Virus record (IMG/VR): IMGVR_UViG_3300045988_126112 | Coordinates: 179,965 to 243,964 of that record | Origin: a virus | Strand: one strand, 5' to 3' | Length of the DNA stretch: 64,000 nucleotides | Shown: one piece after another, positions 3,302 to 41,220 of the stretch | How positions within the stretch are numbered: position 1 is the stretch's first letter | How the letters are laid out: every line of letters begins with the position of its first letter | Made by a program: the position numbers and the translations under genes | The notes under the pieces: model-generated | What the model saw: the letters and a program-made list of their open reading frames with translations, nothing else | What the model was told of the DNA's origin: nothing | Database searches by the model: none

Positions 3302-3311
3302 ATATATTATA
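3302..3311 (+). promoter_or_regulatory. ATATATTATA promoter-like box
   Basis: Exact 10-mer, 36 nt before the ATG of the beta-prime N gene and downstream of terminator 3229..3265. Confidence 0.45.
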
Positions 3312-3346: not shown

Positions 3347-4840
3347 ATGTATCCAGATTTTAAAGATTTTGAATGCACAACTAAATTAGAGATTGTTAAC
3401 TTAGATGCATTCAGAATAGAGAGCATTAGAACAGGAAGAGGGTTTAGAGTTAAGTCGAATTACAAAAATATAAAGAAAGAGCTAAAGAATCCAGATGGAA
3501 TTTATTCAAATAAATTTGGTAGAACTTTAGCAGACGTAGATGAGTATGGTAACAGATATAAATGTGATTGTGGTAAAACAATCTCAAGAATTAATGAAGG
3601 AACCACTTGCCCATATTGTCATACTAAAGTAAAATATGTAGATGATGATTTTGGTTATAATGGTTTCTTAGTGCTTGATGATTATTATATAATTCATCCA
3701 AAGATGTTTGAAACTTTAAAGAGATTCTTTGGAGCTGAAACATTAAATAATATCATCAAATATAATGATGATAAAGATATTAATGGTTATAGTAATCTTA
3801 TCAATCCAAATAGAACTAAAGATGAACCATTCTTTGGTATAGGAATGATAGCATTTAAAGAAAGATTTATGGAGATAATTAATTATTATCGAAATAAGAA
3901 TAAAAACAAAATCAAATATTATGATGATATTATAAATAATATTGATAAAGTATTTACACAAACAATAGTAGTTTTTACTACGTTACTGAGAGCTACTAAG
4001 AATGATCCAAATATATTAAAATATGAACCATCAAATGAATTATATATGATAATGTCTAGTTTAGTATATAATATAAATCAGACTGGTTCAAAAGTGTATA
4101 AAGCAATTAAACCTAAAGCAGAATTACTTTATGATTTACAATGTAAACAAGAAGAAATGTATGATATGATTCTTGTTTTATTATCTGGTAAAAGAGGAAA
4201 ACTTAGAGGAGTATTTGGTGGTAGATATAACTTTACAGCAAGGGTAGTTATAGTACCAGAACCAAAATTAAGAGTTGACCAAGTAATAATGCCATATCAG
4301 TCAATGATTGAATTAGAAAAGCAAAGAATATTAAATGTACTTGAAAAAGTTCATGGTTCAGCTGCATTAGCAAATTCAATATATGAGGATTCTATAAGAG
4401 TTAAGAATCCTGAAATAATAGCTATAATAAGACAGTTGATAAAAGATGATTCAACAGGACAAGGGATTCCAGTATTAGTTAATAGAAACCCAACATTATC
4501 TTATGGGTCTATACAACAAATGTTTGTAGTTGATGTTTGTGAATCATATACTTTAAAAATGCCATTACAAATCTTACCATATTTCAATGCAGATTTCGAT
4601 GGTGACGTTCTTAATGTACACAGAATCCAATCTAAAGTATTCTATGAACATGCTTATCAAGTATTTAATCCTAGAAATGCAATGTATATTAATATGAATG
4701 ATGGATTAGTATCAACAAGTATATTACCATATAAAGATATTCTTATAAATTCTAATACATTATTATATGAATATAGACAAGGATATAGTGAAGAACAATT
4801 AGCTGATATAAGAAGATTTAAAGAAAGACATTCTGCTTAA
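3347..4840 (+). CDS. multisubunit RNA polymerase beta-prime, N-terminal module (stand-alone)
   Basis: Zinc ribbon YKCDCGK...CPYCH; GKRGKLRGVFGGRYNFTARVVIVPEP; NRNPTLSYGSIQ; catalytic YFNADFDGDVLNVH. Start moved to the ATG at 3347 (GGAGG 8 nt upstream) from the track TTG at 3332. Confidence 0.9.
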   Translation: MYPDFKDFECTTKLEIVNLDAFRIESIRTGRGFRVKSNYKNIKKELKNPDGIYSNKFGRTLADVDEYGNRYKCDCGKTISRINEGTTCPYCHTKVKYVDDDFGYNGFLVLDDYYIIHPKMFETLKRFFGAETLNNIIKYNDDKDINGYSNLINPNRTKDEPFFGIGMIAFKERFMEIINYYRNKNKNKIKYYDDIINNIDKVFTQTIVVFTTLLRATKNDPNILKYEPSNELYMIMSSLVYNINQTGSKVYKAIKPKAELLYDLQCKQEEMYDMILVLLSGKRGKLRGVFGGRYNFTARVVIVPEPKLRVDQVIMPYQSMIELEKQRILNVLEKVHGSAALANSIYEDSIRVKNPEIIAIIRQLIKDDSTGQGIPVLVNRNPTLSYGSIQQMFVVDVCESYTLKMPLQILPYFNADFDGDVLNVHRIQSKVFYEHAYQVFNPRNAMYINMNDGLVSTSILPYKDILINSNTLLYEYRQGYSEEQLADIRRFKERHSA

Positions 4841-8041: not shown

Positions 8042-8083
8042 TTTTCTTTTACCTCCTTTACTATAGATTTATTAATATGTTAA

Positions 8084-12915: not shown

Positions 12916-12954
12916 TTTAAAACCTCCTTTATAGTAATTTATTATATTAATGTT

Positions 12955-23052: not shown

Positions 23053-23121
23053 GCCGTTTATCTACGCTATTTTTTTTCAACATATAATTAAAGATTATAT
23101 AAGAAAGAGGGGTGAAAGATT

Positions 23122-26959: not shown

Positions 26960-27011
26960 AAAAAATAACATAAGAATAAAATTATATTTAGATTAAAGGA
27001 GGTAATTTTCA

Positions 27012-32107: not shown

Positions 32108-32150
32108 ACTAACCACCTCCATATTAAATTTATTTGTATGTTGATTTGAC

Positions 32151-34370: not shown

Positions 34371-36455
34371 ATGATATATGAAAACTATTGGATTTATAGA
34401 GAGTTAGCAGAGACAGGTAGAATGACAATTCATACTTGTGATATTAATAAAGATAATTGGGAACAGCATGAAAAAGCTGTTTTCAATATCATGCTTGATA
34501 GTATCGAGTTAGAAGAATCAAGACAAATGTTTACAAGAGTAGTATTTGATGATGGTGATTCAGTTGAATTATCATTATATGATTATTGGTTAAACTTAGT
34601 GTTCTGGTATATGCAAGTCGCAATAGACAAAAGTATTCAACCAGAACATCTATTCTTTGAAGAAACAATTACAATTAAGACATTACAGTCTTATATCAAT
34701 CAATTCTTTGTATTGGTAAATAGAAAATATATAGATATAAAATATATGAATAATGTAATTGACACATCAATGTTTAACTTTGTAAAAATAAATGCATTTG
34801 CGATGTATTTAGCTAATACAATTAACATGTCAGATTTCTTAGCACTTATGGATATCAATCAAGAAACATGGGATATAATTCATACAGATTTATCAAATGT
34901 TCCATTAGCTGATGTTAAGAAAGCTGGTATGGAAGCAATGAATAGATTAACAGAAATTATTAAAAATCATCCAGAACATTGTTTATCTAACTTCATAAAA
35001 TCTGGTGAAGGTTTAAATAAGAAACAAGCAAAAGAAGTTATGGTAAACATAGGTACAAAACCAGATGGACAAGGAGGAATATTCCCATATCAAATAAATA
35101 CAAATTATTTTATGGGTGGTGTTAAAGAACTTGTTCCATTCTTTATGGAGACATCGGTTGCCAGAATAGCTCAAATAATAATAAATAAGAATGTTGGTAA
35201 CTCAGGATATTTCTCAAGACTTATAGGATTAAATAATTTAAATTCTAAATTACACGACGATCCTAATTATGTGTGTGATACTCATCCATCAAATTTCCAA
35301 AAAATCTATATTGAAAATATTGAACTTGCTAATTCAATGGTAGGACAGTATTATAGATTCGAACCTTATGGAATGGAATATGAAATACAAAAAGATGATA
35401 AGAATCTTGTAGGTAAATATATCTATAAAAGAAGTCCAATGACTTGTGCATCAGCTGCAAGAGGTGAAGGAATTTGTTATAGATGTTATGGAGATTTAGC
35501 ATATGTTACAAAAAATATAAATATAGGAAAGATAGCTGCAGAGATTATTTCAGCTATAATTATACAACGTATGCTTTCAGCTAAGCACTTAATAGAAGCA
35601 GAAGTTATTAAGATGGAATGGCAACCAATCTTCTATGAATTATTTGAAAGTAATTATAACTTAATTGAATTAATAGACGATAAAGAACTTAGAGGATATA
35701 AGTTATCAATAAACTTAGCAAATAAATATACAGAAGATGATGATATAGATGAAGTATCAAGTGATATATTTAGTTCATCAACAATGAATGAATATATTAA
35801 TGAATTTGAAATAATCACACCAGATGGAGAAGTTCATAAAATATCAACAACAAATTATGATAATATATATTTGACTCCAGAGCTAGAAGGATTCATAGAT
35901 GAAAATAAAAAGAAAATAGTTGATGATGTATTAACTGTTCCTCTATCTAATTTACAAGGAATGTCATTATTCGCAGTAAGAATACAAAATAATGACTTAG
36001 TAAAAGCATTAGATAAAGTAACTAATATATTAGACAAAACATCTGAAATACAAAAATATGATAAGAATTCAATTCTTCAAAAGTTTTTAATGACAGTACA
36101 AGAATGTAATATCAATGTTTCATCAACACATTGTGAAGTTTTATTAATGAATCAAATAAGAAAGCAATCTGATATAAAAGAAAAACCAGACTGGACAATT
36201 GAGAATCAACAAGATTATCAGATATTAGCATTAAAGAAATCATTAGAAACTAATCCTTCTGTGACAATATCTCTTATGTTCCAAGACATAAAGAAAATGT
36301 TTACTAATCCATTAACATTTGAAAAGACAGCTCCAGGAATAACTGACTTATTCTTTATGGAACATCCACAAGAATATATGTCTGAAGAATATGTTGAGAA
36401 ACTTGAAGAAGAGCAAAATAAAGAATTGAAACAAGTTATATACTATAAATGGTAA
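34371..36455 (+). CDS. multisubunit RNA polymerase beta-prime, C-terminal module
   Basis: Bridge-helix-like FFMETSVARIAQIIINKNVGNSGYFSRLI. MTCASAARGEGICYRCYGDLAY matches the bacterial beta-prime CxxCYGxDLA region. A trigger-loop-like IGKIAAEIISAI follows. Confidence 0.85.
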   Translation: MIYENYWIYRELAETGRMTIHTCDINKDNWEQHEKAVFNIMLDSIELEESRQMFTRVVFDDGDSVELSLYDYWLNLVFWYMQVAIDKSIQPEHLFFEETITIKTLQSYINQFFVLVNRKYIDIKYMNNVIDTSMFNFVKINAFAMYLANTINMSDFLALMDINQETWDIIHTDLSNVPLADVKKAGMEAMNRLTEIIKNHPEHCLSNFIKSGEGLNKKQAKEVMVNIGTKPDGQGGIFPYQINTNYFMGGVKELVPFFMETSVARIAQIIINKNVGNSGYFSRLIGLNNLNSKLHDDPNYVCDTHPSNFQKIYIENIELANSMVGQYYRFEPYGMEYEIQKDDKNLVGKYIYKRSPMTCASAARGEGICYRCYGDLAYVTKNINIGKIAAEIISAIIIQRMLSAKHLIEAEVIKMEWQPIFYELFESNYNLIELIDDKELRGYKLSINLANKYTEDDDIDEVSSDIFSSSTMNEYINEFEIITPDGEVHKISTTNYDNIYLTPELEGFIDENKKKIVDDVLTVPLSNLQGMSLFAVRIQNNDLVKALDKVTNILDKTSEIQKYDKNSILQKFLMTVQECNINVSSTHCEVLLMNQIRKQSDIKEKPDWTIENQQDYQILALKKSLETNPSVTISLMFQDIKKMFTNPLTFEKTAPGITDLFFMEHPQEYMSEEYVEKLEEEQNKELKQVIYYKW

Positions 36456-36460
36456 TATAA

Positions 36461-36496
36461 AAGATAAGAGGTGAAATACCCTCTTATCTTTTTTTG
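36461..36496 (+). terminator. intrinsic terminator
   Basis: AAGATAAGAGG tgaaata CCTCTTATCTT, then TTTTT. Confidence 0.85.
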
Positions 36497-36517
36497 TAAA
36501 ACTCACTTATTTTGATT

Positions 36518-36527
36518 ATATATTATA
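36518..36527 (+). promoter_or_regulatory. ATATATTATA promoter-like box with the upstream GTAAAACTCA..TTTTGATT context
   Basis: Same upstream context as the boxes at 36820 and 37466. Confidence 0.5.
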
Positions 36528-36566
36528 TAAGTGTAATAAAATAATTAAATTTAGGAGGTACTTATT

Positions 36567-36752
36567 ATGAAGAAATTAACAGGTAAAAAATATATGGAAG
36601 TATATGTCACATATATAGGAAGATATGTGACAAAAATATACGCATCTGGTTTAGGAGATGTGTATCAAACAGATGGAACTGAACTAGATTTTGAAGGTAA
36701 ATTAAAATTACTTCAATTAAAATCTCAAGGTTACATACTTGATGAAGAATAA
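36567..36752 (+). CDS. hypothetical small protein
   Basis: AGGAGG RBS. Promoter-like box 36518..36527 upstream and a terminator downstream. Confidence 0.5.
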   Translation: MKKLTGKKYMEVYVTYIGRYVTKIYASGLGDVYQTDGTELDFEGKLKLLQLKSQGYILDEE

Positions 36753-36761
36753 TTAAGTAAG

Positions 36762-36790
36762 CCCAGGAGTACTCCTGGGTTTATTTTTTC
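36762..36790 (+). terminator. intrinsic terminator
   Basis: CCCAGGAG ta CTCCTGGG, then TTTATTTTTT. Confidence 0.85.
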
Positions 36791-36819
36791 TATGTTACTG
36801 TGTAAAACTTAGTATATAT

Positions 36820-36840
36820 GATTATATATTATAAATATGA
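36820..36840 (+). promoter_or_regulatory. extended promoter-like box GATTATATATTATAAATATGA (leader copy 1)
   Basis: Identical 21-mer at 37466..37486. Confidence 0.5.
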
Positions 36841-36961
36841 CATAGATATGATATACAATAAAATTAAAAAGGTAAATCATATCATAAAGATATGAAGCTG
36901 ATGTCTATGTTACTATATGAGATTTCCCATCTTATATAGTCAGCAAGAAAGAGGAATTATT
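36841..36961 (+). promoter_or_regulatory. structured 5' leader, copy 1
   Basis: GATATGAT 36845..36852, ATCATATC 36876..36883, GATATGAA 36889..36896. GCTGA/TCAGC clamp 36897..36901 and 36940..36944. 11-bp hairpin 36913..36939 with loop TTCCC. Confidence 0.55.
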
Positions 36962-37384
36962 ATGAAATCATTAATAAATAAACAATTAGAAAGTATTCTA
37001 TACAATGCAGTAAAATCTGTTAAAGAAGATTTAGAAGAAAATTTAAAACCTTCTTTAATAGGAAGAGTTATATTAGCATGCTCATTTATAGATGACCCTA
37101 TCTATGAAAGAGAAGTTGTAGATATAGGAATGTCAACTGTAGTATTTGATAATGGTGATGTTGTATCATATCATGATATAACTCATGAACCAGAATACAA
37201 TATATTACTTGGTAGCACAAGAGACATTATGGATGTATTGACATTAATCTATAGATTACCAAGATATGAAAAAGTTTTTAATGACTACAAAGCTTATTTC
37301 TCTAATAAAGAAAATAAAGATAACCAAATATATAGATTACTAAAATCCTTAGAAAAGGAAGGTGAAATAGAATTAGGATTTTAA
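36962..37384 (+). CDS. hypothetical protein (paralog of 38056..38466)
   Basis: Start set to the ATG at 36962 (GAGGA 6 nt upstream). The track extension from 36917 runs through the conserved non-coding leader, which carries a stop in the second copy. Confidence 0.6.
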   Translation: MKSLINKQLESILYNAVKSVKEDLEENLKPSLIGRVILACSFIDDPIYEREVVDIGMSTVVFDNGDVVSYHDITHEPEYNILLGSTRDIMDVLTLIYRLPRYEKVFNDYKAYFSNKENKDNQIYRLLKSLEKEGEIELGF

Positions 37385-37389
37385 TAAAA

Positions 37390-37426
37390 GAGGAGGTAGA
37401 GATTAATCTCTGCCTTCTTTATTTTT
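37390..37426 (+). terminator. intrinsic terminator
   Basis: AGGAGGTAGAGA ttaa TCTCTGCCTTCT (two G.U pairs), then TTATTTTTT. Confidence 0.75.
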
Positions 37427-37465
37427 TGTATGTTACTCTTAGTATTTGTAAAACTCAATTATTTT

Positions 37466-37486
37466 GATTATATATTATAAATATGA
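37466..37486 (+). promoter_or_regulatory. extended promoter-like box GATTATATATTATAAATATGA (leader copy 2)
   Basis: Identical 21-mer at 36820..36840. Confidence 0.5.
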
Positions 37487-37609
37487 CATAGATATGATAT
37501 ACAATAATTTTTAAAAAGGTAAATCATATCTTTATGATATGATGCTGATGTCTATGTTACTATGTAAGATTTCCCATCTTATATAGTCAGCAAGAAAGGG
37601 GAATATATT
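37487..37609 (+). promoter_or_regulatory. structured 5' leader, copy 2
   Basis: GATATGAT 37491..37498, ATCATATC 37523..37530, GATATGAT 37536..37543. Clamp 37544..37548 and 37587..37591. Hairpin 37560..37586 with loop TTCCC. SD GGGGAA 37598..37603. Confidence 0.55.
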
Positions 37610-37984
37610 ATGAGTACAACATTTAAAAGTAATGATAAAGTTATCGAAGCAGTTAAATCATTAGTTGCTAAATGCAACGCAACAGGAGATGTTTCAGTAT
37701 TACCAGAAAGATGTGACAGAGCCGACGAATTAATTGAATTAGTAAGACACGGTAATAATTTTGGGTATGACATAAGAAATTATGGATTCGAAGGAGTTGA
37801 CCTAGTACATGGAGATGGATATCTAACAGATATCATAATCCATGAAGAACTATTAGTATTAGATTACAAATTAATTAAACATCTTGAAAAGGAAATAAAT
37901 GACAGAATGGATATGCTATATAAAGTCAAAGAAGAACAAGAAGCTCAATATTGGGCTGATGTTGAAGCAGGACTTTATGATTAA
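37610..37984 (+). CDS. hypothetical acidic protein
   Basis: GGGGAA RBS. Preceded by leader copy 2. Confidence 0.6.
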   Translation: MSTTFKSNDKVIEAVKSLVAKCNATGDVSVLPERCDRADELIELVRHGNNFGYDIRNYGFEGVDLVHGDGYLTDIIIHEELLVLDYKLIKHLEKEINDRMDMLYKVKEEQEAQYWADVEAGLYD

Positions 37985-37989
37985 TAGAA

Positions 37990-38020
37990 AGGACGGAGTT
38001 TAATCTCCGTCTTTTTCTTT
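37990..38020 (+). terminator. intrinsic terminator
   Basis: AGGACGGAG tttaat CTCCGTCTT, then TTTCTTTT. Confidence 0.8.
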
Positions 38021-38055
38021 TGCAATAAAAAAATATTTTTTGGAGGTATTGTATT

Positions 38056-38466
38056 ATGATTAAAAATTTTGAAGAAGAATTATATAGAAAGGTCTTAGAA
38101 GTTAAAGACAACTTGTATTATCAAAAACCGCTTAATAATGATTTAATAACTAAAGTGGTTTTATCTGTATCTGGGGTGTACCATAAGAGAGATGGTGCTT
38201 CAGAAATTAAAGCAGTTCGATATAATTTAGATGACGATCTAGTTTTGTTTTCAGATGGATTAGAATATCCATTAAAAGACATTATAAATTTTAGAATAAC
38301 GCTACCAAAAACATGGTGGTGTATGAATATTTTGAAGATGATATATCATCTTCCAAATTCTAGTAAGATAAAGACTAAGTATAAAGATGATTTAAATGGA
38401 CCAGACAGTAGTCCTATGTGTAATTTAATCAGAGACTTAGTAGCTAGAAAAATTATACAATTTTAA
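38056..38466 (+). CDS. hypothetical protein (paralog of 36962..37384)
   Basis: Shared layout with 36962..37384: LIGRVILACS/LITKVVLSVS, DVVSYHDI/LEYPLKDI, LTLIYRLP/LKMIYHLP, and a C-terminal L..L...G.I. Confidence 0.6.
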   Translation: MIKNFEEELYRKVLEVKDNLYYQKPLNNDLITKVVLSVSGVYHKRDGASEIKAVRYNLDDDLVLFSDGLEYPLKDIINFRITLPKTWWCMNILKMIYHLPNSSKIKTKYKDDLNGPDSSPMCNLIRDLVARKIIQF

Positions 38467-38531: not shown

Positions 38532-38963
38532 ATGTCTAAATATGTAACTTTACATTCAACTATCACTTCTAGTTCTTTAGCTTTAGCAAAATCTGTAGCC
38601 CCTGCACCAGCAGTACCTGCACCAACAGTTTACAGTACGCCTTATACTTCTTTAAGCAAATCACCTCACATTAGCATACTTATACACACTCTCAAAAAAG
38701 GTGCTGCAGCATCTATGTTACCACATCTAGTTGGGCACGCTATAGTTCCTCGTGGCAGTTATACTGGCACATATATAGCTTCAACTGTGGTTCCAGCTGG
38801 TATGACTATCATAAGCACCACATCATCAGGTTATATAACTTATAGTTATTATGGTGCTTCAGGTGGTTACGGAACTCCAGTTAAAATCAGCGTCTGCACT
38901 TCATCAATGAAATTGACAAAATTAATTAAGATGCTGAAAAGCGGGAGTTATACAATGATGTAG
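38532..38963 (+). CDS. basic protein lacking D, E, N, Q, F and W, rich in S/T/Y/G/A/P (orphan)
   Basis: AAGGAGA RBS 6 nt upstream. 143 aa. Local GC is clearly above the flanks, but third codon positions stay mostly A/T, which supports translation. Confidence 0.5.
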   Translation: MSKYVTLHSTITSSSLALAKSVAPAPAVPAPTVYSTPYTSLSKSPHISILIHTLKKGAAASMLPHLVGHAIVPRGSYTGTYIASTVVPAGMTIISTTSSGYITYSYYGASGGYGTPVKISVCTSSMKLTKLIKMLKSGSYTMM

Positions 38964-39117: not shown

Positions 39118-41220
39118 ATGATTAGAAAAGCTAATGAGCCAGAGCCACTTATAATTAATAAGTATAAGGAAGCTACAATTCCTTTACTTGAAAAATCATT
39201 TCCAAACCTTAATTGGATGGAATTAGAGGAAGGAGTAGATTATTCAGTAAAAAACAGATTAAAAGATTGGGATTGTGTTATAGACAATAACTATCTTATG
39301 CAACAAAAACAAATGACAGGGTTACAATTAACTGATTATATTATCAGTAGAGAACCAATTATAACAGCTTATGGAGTTATGTTTAAGAAACATGCTGAAG
39401 CAATAAATCCATTATCATTAATGATTTCAGGTTTCTTAGATGACAGGGTAAAAGAGAAAAAAGAAATGTTCAAATATCCAAAAGGTTCAGAGGATTTCGA
39501 GAAGCACAACTTAATGCAACAATTATATAAAATTGATGCTAATGGAACTTATGGAGCAATAGGACAGCATACGTGTATATTCTATAATTTATATATTTCA
39601 AGTACAGTAACTACTCAAGCCAGAAGCTTGATATCAGCTGCATCGTTACAATTTGAAATGTTCTTAAATAACAACTGTAAGTTTAATTCATTTAATGAAA
39701 TGGTGACATTTGTTGGAAATATAATGTCTGAAAAACCTAGAAGAAGATTTAAAGACTATAATATATTAGACGGAAATGTTACAAGAAAAGATTGTTTTAT
39801 TAAATTAGTAATGACTTGTGGATTTGATTATATTCCTACATATGAAGAAATGGATATACTTTGGAATATGTTAATGAATATGGATCAAGAAGATATTAAT
39901 AGAGTATATTATAAAAATAATCTTTATGAATTTATGGAAAATTCTTCAATGACAAAAGCAATAGTTACAATATTACAAGATTTAGAATTACCATTCTTAG
40001 ATCCAAATACACCACCAGATTGTATAAAACCACAATTAGAAGTATTGTGCGAATTACTAATGGAATATGTGTATTATGATCATCAAATAATAGATAGATT
40101 AGATAAATATAATCAAATGTATAGATCAGTATCAGTAATAACAGATACCGATTCATCTATTATATCTTTAGATGGATGGTATAATTATATACTTCAAAAA
40201 ATATGTGGAATAGATATGAAAATAAAACATCAAGAAGTAGATGCTATATCTTATTTAGATGTATTAGCTAATGATAAAGATACAGAAGAAATTCCATATG
40301 AAATAGTAGAAGAAGAAGAATATTCATTCTATGATGAAGATATGATTGAAACTAAAAGATGTATAGATACAAATAAAGTAATTCCTCAAGATGGATTAAG
40401 ATATTCTATAATAAATATTATGGCATATTGTTTAGATAAAGTAGCTAATGATTATATGGTAAGATATACTGAAAATTCTCATTCAGCTGCTCCAAATAGA
40501 AAATGTAAAATGATATTGAAAAATGAATTCTTATTTAGAAGAGTATTACTTACTTATAATAAAAAGAATTATGCATCTATACAAGAAATACAAGAAGGAA
40601 ATCAAATACCAGCAGAAGAAGCATTAGATGTAAAAGGACTTCCAATGAATAAATCTACATTAAATAAAGAAACTAGACGTAGATTAAAAGAAATATTATA
40701 TGAAGATATATTAAATACACCAGCTATAGATCAAATAAAAGTATTAAAATCTTTAGCTAAATTAGAAAAAGATATATATACTTCATTATCTTCAGGAAGT
40801 AAAGATTATTATATTCCTTCTAGAATAAAATCAATGTATTCATATAAAGATCCTGAAACAGTTCAAGGTATAAAAGCTGCAATGGCTTATAATGAACTTA
40901 AAGATAGTGATATGGAAGCATTAGATTTGACACAAATAAATTCTATAGATATAGTAAAAGTTTTAATAAATTCAAAGACAATAGAACCACTTAAAGAGAC
41001 TAATCCAGAATTATATGAAAAAATAAGTAATTTATTAAAATCATCAACTTTCAAAGGAGAAATAACTTCTTTAGCTATACCAATAAATGAAAAGACACCA
41101 GAATGGGTACTTGATTTTATAGATTTCAATACCATAGTTTCAAATAATATAGTATTCCCTATAGAATCATTAGGAATATATGAAGGAAAATGTAATTACA
41201 CTAATGTAATAAAATTATAA
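39118..41220 (+). CDS. family B DNA polymerase, C-terminal (fingers/palm/thumb) fragment
   Basis: Motif B LYKIDANGTYGAIG, motif C SVITDTDSSII, KKNYA (KKRY-like). No exonuclease motifs and no DxxSLYPS motif A in the 130 aa before motif B. Confidence 0.85.
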   Translation: MIRKANEPEPLIINKYKEATIPLLEKSFPNLNWMELEEGVDYSVKNRLKDWDCVIDNNYLMQQKQMTGLQLTDYIISREPIITAYGVMFKKHAEAINPLSLMISGFLDDRVKEKKEMFKYPKGSEDFEKHNLMQQLYKIDANGTYGAIGQHTCIFYNLYISSTVTTQARSLISAASLQFEMFLNNNCKFNSFNEMVTFVGNIMSEKPRRRFKDYNILDGNVTRKDCFIKLVMTCGFDYIPTYEEMDILWNMLMNMDQEDINRVYYKNNLYEFMENSSMTKAIVTILQDLELPFLDPNTPPDCIKPQLEVLCELLMEYVYYDHQIIDRLDKYNQMYRSVSVITDTDSSIISLDGWYNYILQKICGIDMKIKHQEVDAISYLDVLANDKDTEEIPYEIVEEEEYSFYDEDMIETKRCIDTNKVIPQDGLRYSIINIMAYCLDKVANDYMVRYTENSHSAAPNRKCKMILKNEFLFRRVLLTYNKKNYASIQEIQEGNQIPAEEALDVKGLPMNKSTLNKETRRRLKEILYEDILNTPAIDQIKVLKSLAKLEKDIYTSLSSGSKDYYIPSRIKSMYSYKDPETVQGIKAAMAYNELKDSDMEALDLTQINSIDIVKVLINSKTIEPLKETNPELYEKISNLLKSSTFKGEITSLAIPINEKTPEWVLDFIDFNTIVSNNIVFPIESLGIYEGKCNYTNVIKL

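What the first reader, a model, noticed from the sequence alone, without database searches (positions are those of the whole stretch)
36785..37612. Duplicated structured 5' leader with mutually exclusive helices and an SD-complementary loop
Two intergenic regions (36785..36961 and 37428..37609) are near-identical over about 170 nt, yet the genes they precede (36962..37384 and 37610..37984) are unrelated. Each copy starts with the identical 21-mer GATTATATATTATAAATATGA. A leader of about 120 nt follows, against 18-51 nt at the other copies of this box. In the leader, the central segment AUCAUAUC can pair with an upstream GAUAUGAU across a 23-nt A-rich loop. It can instead pair with a downstream GAUAUGA(A/U) across a 5-nt loop. 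That 5-nt loop differs between copies (AUAAA versus UUUAU) while all three arms are conserved. Next, a GCUGA...UCAGC clamp encloses an 11-bp hairpin. The only two differences between copies in this stem are A/G transitions opposite U, so A-U becomes G.U and pairing is kept. The hairpin loop UUCCC is complementary to the purine tract of the Shine-Dalgarno just downstream (GGGAA at 37599..37603, AGGAA at 36952..36956). The ATG-led frame that runs through copy 1 is broken by ATG TAA in copy 2, so the conservation is not protein-coding. This layout resembles a riboswitch or attenuator-type translational switch, and I cannot match it to a known class.
Basis: seen in the sequence. Interest (0 to 1): 0.8.

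Follow-up and report, generated by a model that had tools for sequence, protein, structure and literature searches.

The report
Structured leader on jumbo-phage early genes
Two neighbouring early genes of an uncultured human-gut jumbo phage carry the same folded RNA leader of about 125 nt. Related phages place this leader in front of unrelated genes, and its first bases can pair with a conserved loop, which fits protecting or timing the message better than a riboswitch.

Summary
Two leaders, 36839-36964 and 37485-37612, are about 92% identical and precede non-homologous genes. The window is a 244-kb human-gut jumbo phage distantly related to Bacillus phage AR9.

The shared 21-mer fits the AR9 virion-RNA-polymerase early promoter, AAATATATATTAT-(6N)-G(+1). 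That predicts RNAs starting 5'-GACAUAGA at G36839 and G37485.

I found 11 more copies (13 in all, 7 sequence types, about 6-7 phage populations), upstream of at least 7 unrelated small ORFs. No Rfam family matches.

- Three helices (H1, the GCUGA/UCAGC clamp, hairpin H2) keep pairing through many compensatory changes.
- The invariant bulge or loop UCUAUGUUA is complementary to the predicted 5' end. In a distant relative the same pair forms a plain 5'-terminal hairpin.
- 5'-terminal helices are enriched among early leaders of this phage group generally.
H2 and its UUCCC loop are missing in three lineages, and the upstream alternative arm in three others. The leader has no terminator, and the conserved fold leaves the SD free.
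- Other strains carry a short leader on the same gene, so the leader is exchanged as a cassette.

Best reading: a new, portable cis-acting leader that sequesters the mRNA 5' end. Its function (stability or timing) is inferred, not shown.

The parts
36755..36786 (+). Intrinsic terminator of the upstream 61-aa gene. It closes the preceding transcription unit.
   Evidence: Terminator scan. Sequence.
36789..36809 (+). Terminator-proximal element TCTATGTTACTG followed by TGTAAAACT, an upstream promoter-module element. The first part repeats the leader's bulge motif. In other strains it also precedes short-leader promoters.
   Evidence: It occurs at short-leader promoters in L112 and L111.
36821..36839 (+). 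Copy 1 early promoter, ATTATATATTAT-(AAATAT)-G. The predicted transcription start is G36839.
   Evidence: Fits the AR9 virion-RNAP early consensus AAATATATATTAT-(6N)-G+1 (PMC5312081). The same box sits at other window genes. The start site is inferred, not mapped.
36839..36849 (+). Copy 1 5'-terminal segment GACAUAGAUAU. It is complementary to the bulge AUGUCUAUGUU (helix P0).
   Evidence: (duplex -11.1 kcal/mol; it is the best partner anywhere in the leader).
36866..36875 (+). Copy 1 linker motif AAAAAGGUAA, a weak SD-like tract. It aligns with the SD and spacer of the short leader used by other strains.
   Evidence: Alignment A8. Conserved as (A/U)(A/U)GGU(A/G) across lineages.
36876..36896 (+). 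Copy 1 hairpin H1 (AUCAUAUC-AUAAA-GAUAUGAA).
   Evidence: Seven of 8 pairs show compensatory changes across 12 family members. RNAalifold recovers it.
36897..36944 (+). Copy 1 3' domain. Clamp GCUGA (36897-36901) pairs with UCAGC (36940-36944). It encloses the invariant bulge UG-UCUAUGUUA (36902-36912) and hairpin H2 (36913-36939, loop UUCCC 36924-36928).
   Evidence: Clamp: 5 of 5 core pairs compensatory, 100% paired. H2: 3 of 11 pairs compensatory, 100% paired. The bulge motif is invariant in all 13 copies.
36949..36964 (+). Copy 1 Shine-Dalgarno AAGAGGAA and the start codon ATG 36962-36964. This stretch is unpaired in the conserved fold.
36962..37384 (+). 140-aa early ORF of unknown function. 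It is a paralog of the 136-aa ORF at 38056-38466.
   Evidence: no Pfam match; 31% identity, E 2e-7.
37389..37420 (+). Intrinsic terminator of the 140-aa gene.
37428..37455 (+). Terminator-proximal GTATGTTACTC, an 8-nt insert, then TGTAAAACT.
37467..37485 (+). Copy 2 early promoter. The predicted transcription start is G37485.
   Evidence: As for copy 1.
37485..37495 (+). Copy 2 5'-terminal segment GACAUAGAUAU (5' strand of P0).
37523..37543 (+). Copy 2 hairpin H1 (AUCAUAUC-UUUAU-GAUAUGAU).
37544..37591 (+). Copy 2 clamp (37544-37548 with 37587-37591), bulge motif (37549-37559) and H2 (37560-37586, loop UUCCC 37571-37575).
37598..37612 (+). Copy 2 SD GGGGAA and the start codon ATG 37610-37612.
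37610..37984 (+). 124-aa early ORF of unknown function. In strains L111, L112, L113 and L116 its 77-78% identical homolog has the short leader instead.

Best explanation
**What it is.** Each copy is the promoter plus 5' untranslated leader of an independent early transcription unit of an AR9-like jumbo phage. The promoter fits the virion-RNA-polymerase type. The RNA is predicted to start at G36839 and G37485.

**Structure.** The leader is a conserved, portable, cis-acting structured RNA. It has these parts in order:
- a 5'-terminal segment GACAUAGA(U/A)AU;
- an A/U-rich linker with a weak SD-like GGU tract;
- hairpin H1;
- a second stem (the 'clamp') that displays the invariant UCUAUGUUA, either as its loop or as a bulge with an optional extra hairpin H2;
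- an unpaired SD.

The invariant motif pairs with the very 5' end of the transcript (helix P0). Together with the clamp this gives a pseudoknot or an alternative fold.

**Most likely function (inferred).** The leader buries the 5' terminus. That would protect the mRNA from 5'-end-dependent decay (pyrophosphohydrolase, RNase J or RNase E type) and prolong or time expression of selected early genes. In the window lineage, extra complementarities may add conformational tuning: the 5' segment with the H1 5' arm, and the H2 loop with the SD.

**Why the two copies are near-identical.** Leader cassettes are exchanged by recombination between terminator-promoter modules.

**Status of each step**
- Shown: the repeat; the fit of the promoter to the consensus; family membership of 13 copies; conservation and covariation of the helices; 5' end/motif complementarity; cassette swapping between strains.
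- Inferred: the transcription start, formation of P0 in vivo, and the stabilising function.

**Confidence.** About 0.8 that this is a genuine conserved structured cis-acting leader family. About 0.35 that 5'-end protection is its main function. The single figure of 0.5 covers the whole statement.
For: 1. **Phage and promoter type.** RNAP beta' at 34371-36455 is 28-30% identical to AR9, PBS1 and BpSp. The box fits the AR9 early consensus with G at +1 (PMC5312081). AR9-type late motifs AACA(N6)TA sit upstream of other genes, some just after a T-run.

2. **Independent units.** Intrinsic terminators lie immediately upstream of both copies and none lies inside the leader.

3. **Family.** Covariance model R1 finds 13 copies with E from 2e-29 to 0.05 and nothing else convincing in the close relatives (next best E about 0.09-0.2). 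It finds nothing at E<=1 in 1.4 Mb of distant relatives. The copies precede at least 7 unrelated ORFs.

4. **Covariation, model-fitted alignment A6.** 95.7% of cells are paired against 75% in shuffles. Fifteen pairs carry double changes. H1 has 7 of 8, the clamp 5 of 5, H2 3 of 11. Slid registers give 24-43% paired.

5. **Covariation, manual alignment A7.** Clamp and H2 are 100% paired. The covariation score is 0.171 against 0.081, with 0 of 500 shuffles reaching it. RNAalifold recovers the same three helices.

6. **P0.** The first 8-11 nt pair with the motif at -7 to -11 kcal/mol, and the motif is the best partner of the 5' 12-mer in every lineage. The two substitutions seen both keep pairing as G.U: L007 A to G, and L305 C to U. 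In the distant relative L305 (RNAP 37% identity) the same two sequences form a simple 9-bp 5'-terminal hairpin. In L038 and L011A, P0 is in the minimum-free-energy fold.

7. **Generality.** Among 69 unique predicted early leaders of 40-130 nt, nt 1-8 have pairing probability 0.56 against 0.38 for shuffled controls, and 42% reach p<=0.05. With this family excluded, 52% of 60 have their first paired base at nt 1-2, against 25% in shifted registers.

8. **Precedent.** 5'-terminal base pairing and SD-like elements are established mRNA stabilisers (reference list of PMC3997798). In AR9, most early 5' ends were not enriched by TEX treatment at 20 min, which the authors suggest may reflect dephosphorylation of primary transcripts.

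9. **Cassette exchange.** The homologous 124-aa gene has the short leader behind the same promoter module in L111, L112, L113 and L116. The 142-aa homolog in L111 has the long leader. L002 and L003 carry mosaic leaders.
Against: - No transcription start, RNA structure or half-life has been measured. The start site rests on analogy with AR9.
- P0 shows no true compensatory change. Both strands are almost invariant, so it is supported only by complementarity, two wobble-preserving changes and the L305 hairpin. Such invariance also suggests a sequence-specific reader (a protein) rather than pairing alone.
- In the lineages without H2, the motif fills a 12-nt loop closed by a 10-bp stem with no nucleotide before the 3' strand. 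A full 8-9 bp P0 and the full stem probably cannot coexist.
- The motif (C/G)TATGTTACT also occurs on DNA just after terminators, upstream of promoters with short leaders. The RNA model does not explain this.
- The pair counts come from alignments fitted to the structure, and the 13 copies represent only about 7 independent lineages.
A real conformational switch there cannot be excluded.
Confidence: 0.5

Rival explanations
1. One reading: a translational riboswitch- or attenuator-like switch. The central AUCAUAUC toggles between an upstream and a downstream GAUAUGA partner, and the UUCCC loop of the long hairpin masks the Shine-Dalgarno.
For: - In window-type copies the upstream arm pairs at -7.8 kcal/mol (p 0.00 against shuffles) and is chosen in the minimum-free-energy fold.
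- In L038 the central A to G change keeps both alternatives: G.U with the upstream arm, G-C with the changed downstream arm.
- L087, L089 and L007 also show 5'-segment/H1-arm complementarity with different H1 sequences (p 0.01, 0.04, 0.07).
- The UUCCC loop complements the SD in copy 2 (-7.8, p 0.08) and in L098 (-8.8, p 0.007).
Against: - H2 and its loop are absent in L087, L089 and L007. The loop is AAAU or UAAAUCCU in L011 A and B. Copy 1 loop-SD complementarity is at chance (p 0.69).
- The alternative arm is absent in L098, L011A and L011B.
- A 5-nt loop cannot pair all five bases with an external strand.
- The downstream genes have no common function, and the same gene works with a short leader in other strains.
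- No Rfam aptamer matches.
Confidence: 0.15
2. The invariant motif is an operator for a trans-acting phage or host protein or RNA. The leader is a protein-responsive regulatory RNA, and the same factor also reads the terminator-proximal copies.
For: - UCUAUGUUA(C) is sequence-invariant and displayed in a loop or bulge, while all the surrounding helices drift.
- The same 9-10-mer recurs next to terminators at unrelated promoters and in the distant relative L305.
- TATGTTAC is over-represented in the window: 13 matches against 4.7 expected.
Against: - No candidate binding protein has been identified.
- Most of the 13 TATGTTAC matches lie outside the locus studied here and were not examined.
- Complementarity to the 5' end already gives an RNA-only reason for the motif.
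Confidence: 0.12
3. It works at the DNA level. GT(A/G)ACATAGA sites upstream of the promoter, at +1 and at about +65 are operators for a DNA-binding regulator (looping), or they are antisense late promoters, since the reverse complement contains AACA.
For: - Up to three copies of the 10-mer flank the promoter in inverted orientation.
- The reverse complement AGTAACATAGA contains the AR9 late-promoter core AACA, and AACATAGAAATA is the apparent late promoter of the 740-aa gene in L005, L008 and L011.
- AR9 has antisense late promoters.
Against: - The two leader sites differ consistently at one position in the way expected for an RNA G.U pair, not a DNA repeat.
- Site spacing varies from about 57 to 69 bp with no helical phasing.
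- The -1/+1 dinucleotide that a late promoter needs (TA or TG) reads TC, TT, AC or CC.
- The upstream copy is absent in half of the leaders and present at short-leader promoters.
- A DNA model does not explain the covarying RNA helices.
Confidence: 0.08
4. It is an evolutionary relic or recombination scar with no function of its own: the remains of a deleted early gene (promoter, decayed SD, hairpins), kept alike by gene conversion between PeSL-like terminator-promoter cassettes.
For: - The 5' half aligns with a short leader including its SD and start region: AAGGAGGUAAAUAUUAUG against AAAAAGGUAAAUCAUAUC.
- Leaders are mosaic between strains.
- Long and short leaders are interchangeable on the same gene.
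Against: - Helices keep pairing through many double substitutions across phages whose RNAP is only 56-61% identical.
- The motif and the 5' segment stay invariant while the linker and loops drift.
- A minimal version persists in a relative with 37% RNAP identity.
Confidence: 0.08
5. The leader encodes a small leader peptide, for example from the AUG inside the motif (MLL...).
For: The invariant motif contains AUG. In L007 and L011A this AUG is in frame with the downstream gene.
Against: - No SD precedes it.
- Peptide length, frame and stop differ in every lineage: MLLYEISHLI*, MLL*, MLLDIIL*, out of frame in L011B.
- The other small ORFs are broken between copy 1 and copy 2.
Confidence: 0.02

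Closest known systems
[quoted passage not shown]
   Same: The extreme 5' end of the predicted transcript is base-paired. A weak SD-like tract lies in the leader. It acts in cis, is independent of the downstream gene and is portable. These precedents are in the reference list of PMC3997798.
   Different: Here the 5' end pairs with a distal loop or bulge 56-61 nt away. The result is a pseudoknot-like fold with two covarying hairpins in between, not a simple terminal hairpin (except in L305). No stabilising effect has been measured.
AR9 early (virion-RNAP) promoters and their 5' UTR motifs (Lavysh et al. 2017, PMC5312081)
   Same: Same promoter consensus with G at +1. AR9 also has long 5' UTRs (26-491 nt) and an uncharacterised motif in early 5' UTRs.
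   Different: The leader sequence has no match in AR9, PBS1 or any cultured phage. Only the promoter part matches Staphylococcus jumbo phages. I could not see the AR9 motif (Fig. S3 of that paper) to compare it.
PeSL composite terminator/early-promoter cassettes of T4-type phages (PMC2839356, PMC4122927)
   Same: Repeated terminator-plus-early-promoter modules flank small variable ORFs in a plastic region between core genes (RNAP and DNA polymerase). Strains differ by swaps and indels bounded by the modules.
   Different: The promoter type differs (AR9 virion RNAP, not sigma-70). The element of interest is the transcribed structured leader downstream of the promoter, which PeSLs lack.
Phage antitermination RNAs present in two copies behind two promoters (lambda nutL/nutR; HK022 putL/putR)
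   Same: Two near-identical structured RNA elements lie just downstream of two promoters in one phage, and each unit ends at a strong terminator. This comparison is from my own knowledge.
   Different: No sequence or structural similarity. No Rfam hit. The elements sit directly before an SD and gene. No read-through evidence. Not tested.
Pseudoknot riboswitches and other cis-regulatory leaders in Rfam
   Same: Covarying helices around invariant unpaired nucleotides, and a possible pseudoknot.
   Different: No Rfam model matches, even at E<=10. No coherent gene association. The SD is not sequestered in the conserved fold. An optional domain (H2) comes and goes.

Membership tests
Any Rfam 15 family (riboswitches, leaders, ribozymes, sRNAs) | Score at or above the family's gathering threshold | tested here: not met
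   Zero hits in the window and in 6 related loci. At E<=10 over 36400-38100 no hit falls inside either leader.
AR9-type virion-RNAP early promoter | Consensus AAATATATATTAT-(6N)-G(+1) | tested here: met
   ATTATATATTAT-AAATAT-G at 36821-36839 and 37467-37485. The same pattern sits at 3302, 16762, 22605, 33465, 36518 and 39087.
AR9-type virion-RNAP early promoter | Transcription starts at the G, early in infection, and is independent of protein synthesis | not testable with these tools
   No transcript data. Indirect support: predicted RNA helices start at nt 1-2 of the predicted transcript in 52% of 60 other leaders, against 25% in shifted registers.
Riboswitch | Conserved aptamer with covarying helices and invariant junction or loop nucleotides | tested here: inconclusive
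   Helices covary and a 9-nt motif is invariant. However, the H2 domain is optional, and a distant version is a bare hairpin.
Riboswitch | Association with genes of a coherent pathway related to a ligand | tested here: not met
   At least 7 unrelated small ORFs with no Pfam domain. The same gene has a short leader in other strains.
Riboswitch / transcription attenuator | Expression platform: an intrinsic terminator or an SD-sequestering helix alternative to the aptamer | tested here: not met
   No terminator in the leader. The SD lies outside all conserved helices. Loop-SD pairing is lineage-specific and at chance in copy 1.
5'-terminal-helix mRNA stabiliser | Base pairing that includes or lies within a few nt of the 5' terminus | tested here: met
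   Nt 1-8(11) are complementary to the motif in all copies. The pairing probability of nt 1-8 is 0.76-0.97 for the two window copies in their list. L305 has a 9-bp hairpin from nt 2. All this is conditional on the predicted start site.
5'-terminal-helix mRNA stabiliser | Lengthens mRNA half-life or blocks 5'-dependent RNases | not testable with these tools
   Needs experiments.
PeSL-like mobile regulatory cassette | Composite terminator stem-loop plus early promoter, repeated between small variable ORFs | tested here: met
   A terminator followed by the promoter module occurs at 36451-36533, 36755-36839 and 37389-37485.
PeSL-like mobile regulatory cassette | Close relatives differ by indels or swaps bounded by the cassettes | tested here: met
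   Between RNAP and DNA polymerase, the window, L111 and L112 carry different ORF sets and different leaders on the homologous 124-aa gene. Leaders are mosaic.
PeSL-like mobile regulatory cassette | T4-type sigma-70 early promoter | tested here: not met
   The promoter is of the AR9 virion-RNAP type. The analogy is functional, not membership.

The most novel reading that the evidence does not exclude
The leader is a true RNA switch specific to virion-RNA-polymerase transcripts. The extreme 5' end toggles between the invariant UCUAUGUUAC loop (5' end buried) and the 5' arm of H1. A so far unknown phage or host factor recognises the invariant motif and sets the balance, and it also reads the terminator-proximal copies. 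That would define a post-transcriptional regulon controlling the lifetime or translation of a subset of jumbo-phage early mRNAs.
Probability: 0.15. Interest if true: 0.8.

Novelty: new variant of a known kind. Interest (0 to 1): 0.5.

Why it matters
Little is known about how jumbo phages with their own virion-packaged RNA polymerase control early messages after transcription. This work gives three things:
- a covariation-supported RNA family with no Rfam match, tied to AR9-type early promoters in common human-gut jumbo phages;
- a simple, testable rule that early transcripts of this phage group tend to begin with a helix at +1, consistent with protection of the 5' end;
- a natural experiment, because the same gene carries the long or the short leader in different strains.

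If the stabiliser reading holds, the module would be a compact, portable 5' UTR part for expression in low-GC hosts. It would also be a marker for early genes in metagenomic jumbo-phage contigs. If a trans-acting factor reads the invariant motif, the leader would mark a new phage regulon.

Tried and rejected
- **Known RNA families.** Rfam at gathering and permissive thresholds gave nothing. There are no tRNAs in the window.
- **Cultured phages.** Megablast of the locus gave no match. Distant blastn of the leader matched only the promoter part, in Staphylococcus jumbo phages.
- **IMG/VR pattern scans.** Three scans found no family member. The two hits are coding-sequence chance matches.
- **IMG/VR protein search.** A single-protein locus search found nothing.
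- **Metagenome scan.** It returned 97 loci, of which only 5 are real (L038, L087, L089, L094, L098). The rest are unrelated coding or repeat sequences.
- **GTDB genome scan.** A promoter-plus-linker pattern gave only chance hits among the 120 rows returned.
- **Distant relatives.** R1 found no full-length member in 80 IMG/VR loci of distant relatives.
- **Alignment.** MAFFT alone misaligns the divergent copies (A3). I used a model-based alignment (A6) and a manual alignment passed to the aligner with N padding (A7). A7 is in register only for the 5' segment and from the clamp onward, so H1 was counted on A6.
- **Hypotheses considered and dropped.**
  - Hammerhead-like CUGAUG in the clamp: not conserved in L011 and no Rfam hit.
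  - RNase III site: H2 is absent in 3 lineages.
  - Antisense AR9-type late promoter in the motif: the -1/+1 bases do not fit.
  - Leader peptide: frames and stops are not conserved.
- **Downstream proteins.** Pfam gave no domains.
Full report
**1. What the window is**

The window comes from a 244-kb contig of a human-gut metagenome (ENA ERZ918339 k127_120508), with about 27% G+C. The 694-aa ORF just upstream of the finding (34371-36455) is a split RNA-polymerase beta' subunit. It is 28-30% identical to those of Bacillus jumbo phages BpSp, PBS1 and AR9. A family-B DNA polymerase follows at 39118. The finding lies in the stretch of small ORFs between these two core genes.

**2.

- The two intergenic regions align at 89% overall. 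They are near-identical from the shared 21-mer to the start codons (blastn 91.5% over 130 nt, E 5e-47).
- The 21-mer is exact at 36820 and 37466.
- The two downstream proteins are not homologous. The 140-aa protein is instead a paralog of the 136-aa ORF at 38056.
- The + strand folds better than shuffles (z -2.7 and -3.6). The - strand does so less.

**3. The box is an AR9-type early promoter, which fixes the likely 5' end**

In AR9, early promoters used by the virion RNA polymerase read AAATATATATTAT-(6N)-G(+1). Late promoters read AACA-(6N)-TA/G (PMC5312081).

- The window box reads ATTATATATTAT-AAATAT-G. At least eight other copies of the core ATATATTAT(A) sit before genes, each with G at the predicted +1.
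- AACA(N6)TA motifs sit upstream of other genes, some just after a T-run, for example at 8066-8081(-), 12934-12954(-), 23079-23093(+), 26967-26983(+) and 32120-32142(-).
- The two leaders are therefore predicted to start at G36839 and G37485, as 5'-GACAUAGAUAUGAU. This is an inference by analogy.
- The other early leaders are 16-47 nt and begin G(U/A)AAUAAAAUAAU. Only these two run to 123 and 125 nt.
- Strong intrinsic terminators lie just upstream of each copy and none lies inside. Each copy heads its own transcription unit, and the leader is not a terminator-type attenuator.

**4. Relatives**

The element is absent from cultured-phage records. Three IMG/VR pattern scans found no family member.

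I reached relatives in two ways. One was through homologs of the RNAP subunit and of the 124-aa protein, fetching their contigs. The other was one metagenome pattern scan (filtered).

A covariance model built from the six close copies (R1) recovers 13 copies with E from 2e-29 to 0.05. It finds nothing else convincing in the close relatives, where the next best hits are at E about 0.09-0.2. The copies are:
- window copy 1 and copy 2;
- L002, L003, L038, L094 and L111, which are strain variants;
- L098;
- L011 A and B, two copies in one phage with RNAP 56% identical;
- L087 and L089, from the same sample and coverage as L094, so probably the same phage;
- L007, with RNAP 61% identical.

They precede at least seven unrelated small ORFs without Pfam domains. 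The leader is thus a module independent of the gene it serves.

**5. Conserved architecture**

After the promoter come these parts:
- the 5' segment GACAUAGA(U/A)AU (UACAUGGAUAU in L007);
- an A/U-rich linker ending in a GGU tract, usually AAAAGGUAAA;
- hairpin H1, whose sequence differs completely between lineages: AUCAUAUC/GAUAUGAU, AUCAUGUC/GACAUGAU, ACUCU/AGAGU, CUCUAUAU/AUAUAGAG, GUGCUAU/AUAGCAC, GUAUGUC/GACAUAC, GUAUCU/AGAUAC, AUAUC/GAUAU;
- a second stem, the clamp: GCUGA/UCAGC, GCUGG/CCAGC, GUAGG/CCUAC, UUAUGUCAAG/CUUGAUAUAA;
- the invariant UCUAUGUUA enclosed by the clamp;
- an unpaired purine-rich tail with the SD.

In the window type, L098 and L011, a further hairpin H2 is inserted 3' of the motif, so the motif becomes a bulge. 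In L087, L089 and L007 there is no H2, and the motif is simply the loop.

Pair counts:
- On the model-fitted alignment A6, 95.7% of cells are paired against 75% in shuffles, and 15 pairs carry double changes. H1 has 7 of 8, the clamp 5 of 5 and H2 3 of 11. Slid registers fall to 24-43% paired.
- On my manual alignment A7, the clamp and H2 are 100% paired. The covariation score is 0.171 against 0.081, with 0 of 500 shuffles reaching it.
- RNAalifold predicts the same three helices on its own.

Both alignments are fitted to the structure, and the copies represent about seven lineages. The numbers are therefore supportive rather than formal proof. The complete turnover of H1 and clamp sequence with pairing retained is hard to explain otherwise.

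**6.

- 5'-GACAUAGA-3' from the predicted +1 is complementary to 5'-UCUAUGUU-3'. That gives 8 bp, extended to 10-11 bp in the window type.
- The duplex energy is -7 to -11 kcal/mol. The motif is the best partner of the 5' 12-mer anywhere in the leader in every lineage.
- In L038 and L011A this helix (P0) appears in the minimum-free-energy fold.
- Both strands are nearly invariant, so there is no compensatory evidence. The two substitutions seen both keep pairing as G.U: A to G in L007, and C to U in L305.
- Independent support comes from 80 IMG/VR loci of more distant relatives (RNAP 36-47% identical). R1 finds no full-length member there. Yet L305:2459-2519 has, right after an early promoter, G-AAUAUAGAU-[11 nt]-GUCUAUGUU-ACU. 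This is the same two sequences forming a plain 9-bp 5'-terminal hairpin.

The long leader therefore looks like this hairpin with the linker, H1 and the 5' strand of the clamp inserted into its loop.

With the clamp formed as well, P0 makes a pseudoknot. Where H2 is absent, no nucleotide separates the motif from the 3' strand of the stem. Full P0 and the full stem probably cannot coexist there and may alternate.

**7. A general rule in this phage group**

I took 69 unique predicted early leaders of 40-130 nt from the window and all related loci.
- Nt 1-8 have a mean pairing probability of 0.56, against 0.38 when the rest of the leader is shuffled. 42% reach p<=0.05, against the 5% expected.
- With the present family excluded, the first paired base of the minimum-free-energy fold is nt 1 or 2 in 52% of 60 leaders. 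In registers shifted by 6 or 9 nt it is 25%.
- Many are simple hairpins starting exactly at the predicted G, for example GAAUCAAACAUAUUUGAUUC and GAUGAGUUAUUAUACUUAUC.

This supports the predicted start sites. It also suggests that burying the 5' end is under selection in early transcripts.

5'-terminal base pairing and SD-like tracts are established mRNA stabilisers in E. coli and B. subtilis (references listed in PMC3997798). In AR9, most early 5' ends were not enriched by TEX treatment at 20 min, which the authors suggest may reflect dephosphorylation of primary transcripts. I therefore take protection of the 5' end as the most likely function. This last step is inference.

**8.

- The upstream arm GAUAUGAU is real and strong in the window type, and it is chosen in the minimum-free-energy fold. 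It overlaps the 5' strand of P0, so three pairings compete there: 5' segment with motif, 5' segment with the H1 5' arm, and H1 itself.
- L087, L089 and L007 also have 5'-segment/H1-arm complementarity with different H1 sequences (p 0.01-0.07). L098, L011A and L011B do not.
- The UUCCC loop complements the SD only in copy-2-like leaders and in L098, which share their SD region by descent. It is at chance for copy 1, and H2 is missing in three lineages.

A lineage-specific conformational refinement is possible, but the family-wide element is not an SD-masking switch. Nothing points to a ligand.

**9. Why two near-identical copies: cassette exchange**

- In strains L112, L113 and L116 the homologous 124-aa gene (78% identity) sits behind the same terminator and promoter module. 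There it has the short leader GUAAUAAAAUAAAUUAUAUUAAAGGAGG.
- In L111 the 124-aa gene (77% identity) also has a short leader, while the 142-aa homolog of the copy-1 gene has the long one.
- L002 and L003 carry mosaic copy-1/copy-2 leaders, and their contigs start right at the repeat.
- The ORF sets between RNAP and DNA polymerase differ between strains.

This is the behaviour described for PeSL terminator/early-promoter cassettes in T4-type phages (PMC2839356, PMC4122927), here with a different promoter type.

Alignment A8 also shows that the 5' half of the long leader aligns with a short leader, including its SD and start region. The conserved AAAAGGUAAA is therefore a weakened SD. It may be a relic or a STAB-SD-like ribosome-binding tract.

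**10. Unexplained**

The DNA motif (C/G)TATGTTACT(G) also lies directly after terminator T-runs and upstream of TGTAAAACT. It is there at both window copies and at L011 B, L038 and L094. It also occurs at short-leader promoters in L111 and L112, and once between a terminator and an SD with no promoter (L111:2960). It is thus not specific to the long leader.

I tested the antisense late-promoter idea, since the reverse complement is AGTAACATAGA. The -1/+1 bases do not fit. It may be part of the recombining module, or a site for a factor that also reads the leader loop.

**11. Verdict**

This is a genuine, previously undescribed structured leader family carried on early promoters of human-gut AR9-like jumbo phages. 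Its helices are well supported. The 5'-end/loop pairing is plausible, and the function is inferred. It is a new variant of a known kind (5' UTR cis elements that bury the mRNA 5' end), not a riboswitch on present evidence.

Noticed in passing
window 36789-36800 and 37428-37438; L112:2994-3005 and 3914-3925; L111:2964-2973 and 3911-3922: The element (C/G)TATGTTACT(G) sits directly after intrinsic-terminator T-runs, usually just before TGTAAAACT and an early promoter. It occurs at both long- and short-leader promoters. In L111 it sits once between a terminator and an SD with no promoter. It repeats the leader's invariant loop motif, and its role is unknown.
   Followed up: partly
window 8066-8081(-), 12934-12954(-), 23079-23093(+), 26967-26983(+), 32120-32142(-): AR9-type late-promoter motifs AACA(N6)TA lie upstream of genes, some just after a T-run. 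The phage therefore appears to use the AR9 two-polymerase early/late scheme.
   Followed up: partly
window 3317, 16777, 22620, 33480, 36533 (predicted +1 positions) and many related loci: Short early leaders share a conserved start, G(U/A)AAUAA(A)AUAAU, before the SD. This may correspond to the uncharacterised early 5' UTR motif mentioned for AR9.
   Followed up: no
L238-L317 and window (predicted early leaders of 40-130 nt): Predicted early transcripts of this phage group often begin with a hairpin that starts exactly at the predicted +1 G. The first paired base is nt 1-2 in 52% of leaders, against 25% in shifted registers.
   Followed up: yes
window 36962-37384 and 38056-38466: The 140-aa and 136-aa ORFs are paralogs (31% identity, E 2e-7). 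The second has no early promoter or long leader of its own.
   Followed up: partly
L002:1, L003:1, L114:1, L115:1, L117:1: Several short-read contigs from other samples begin inside the repeated promoter/leader module just upstream of the 124-aa gene. These repeats probably break assemblies of this phage.
   Followed up: no
L007:7553-7872 and L010:13467-13842: A non-coding stretch of 320-375 nt lies downstream of a 73-76-aa gene and ends in a G+C-rich terminator (GAGGGGG...CCCCC). By eye it looks alike in the two related phages; no alignment was made. It could be a non-coding RNA. No Rfam match.
   Followed up: partly
L008:16576-18350 (-): A relative with 58% identical RNAP encodes two adjacent sigma-70-like proteins (Pfam Sigma70_r2) near a second RNAP subunit gene.
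   Followed up: no
window 38532-38963: A 143-aa ORF rich in Ser, Thr, Ala and Pro, conserved in length in related strains. Its codon composition is unusual for this A+T-rich genome.
   Followed up: no
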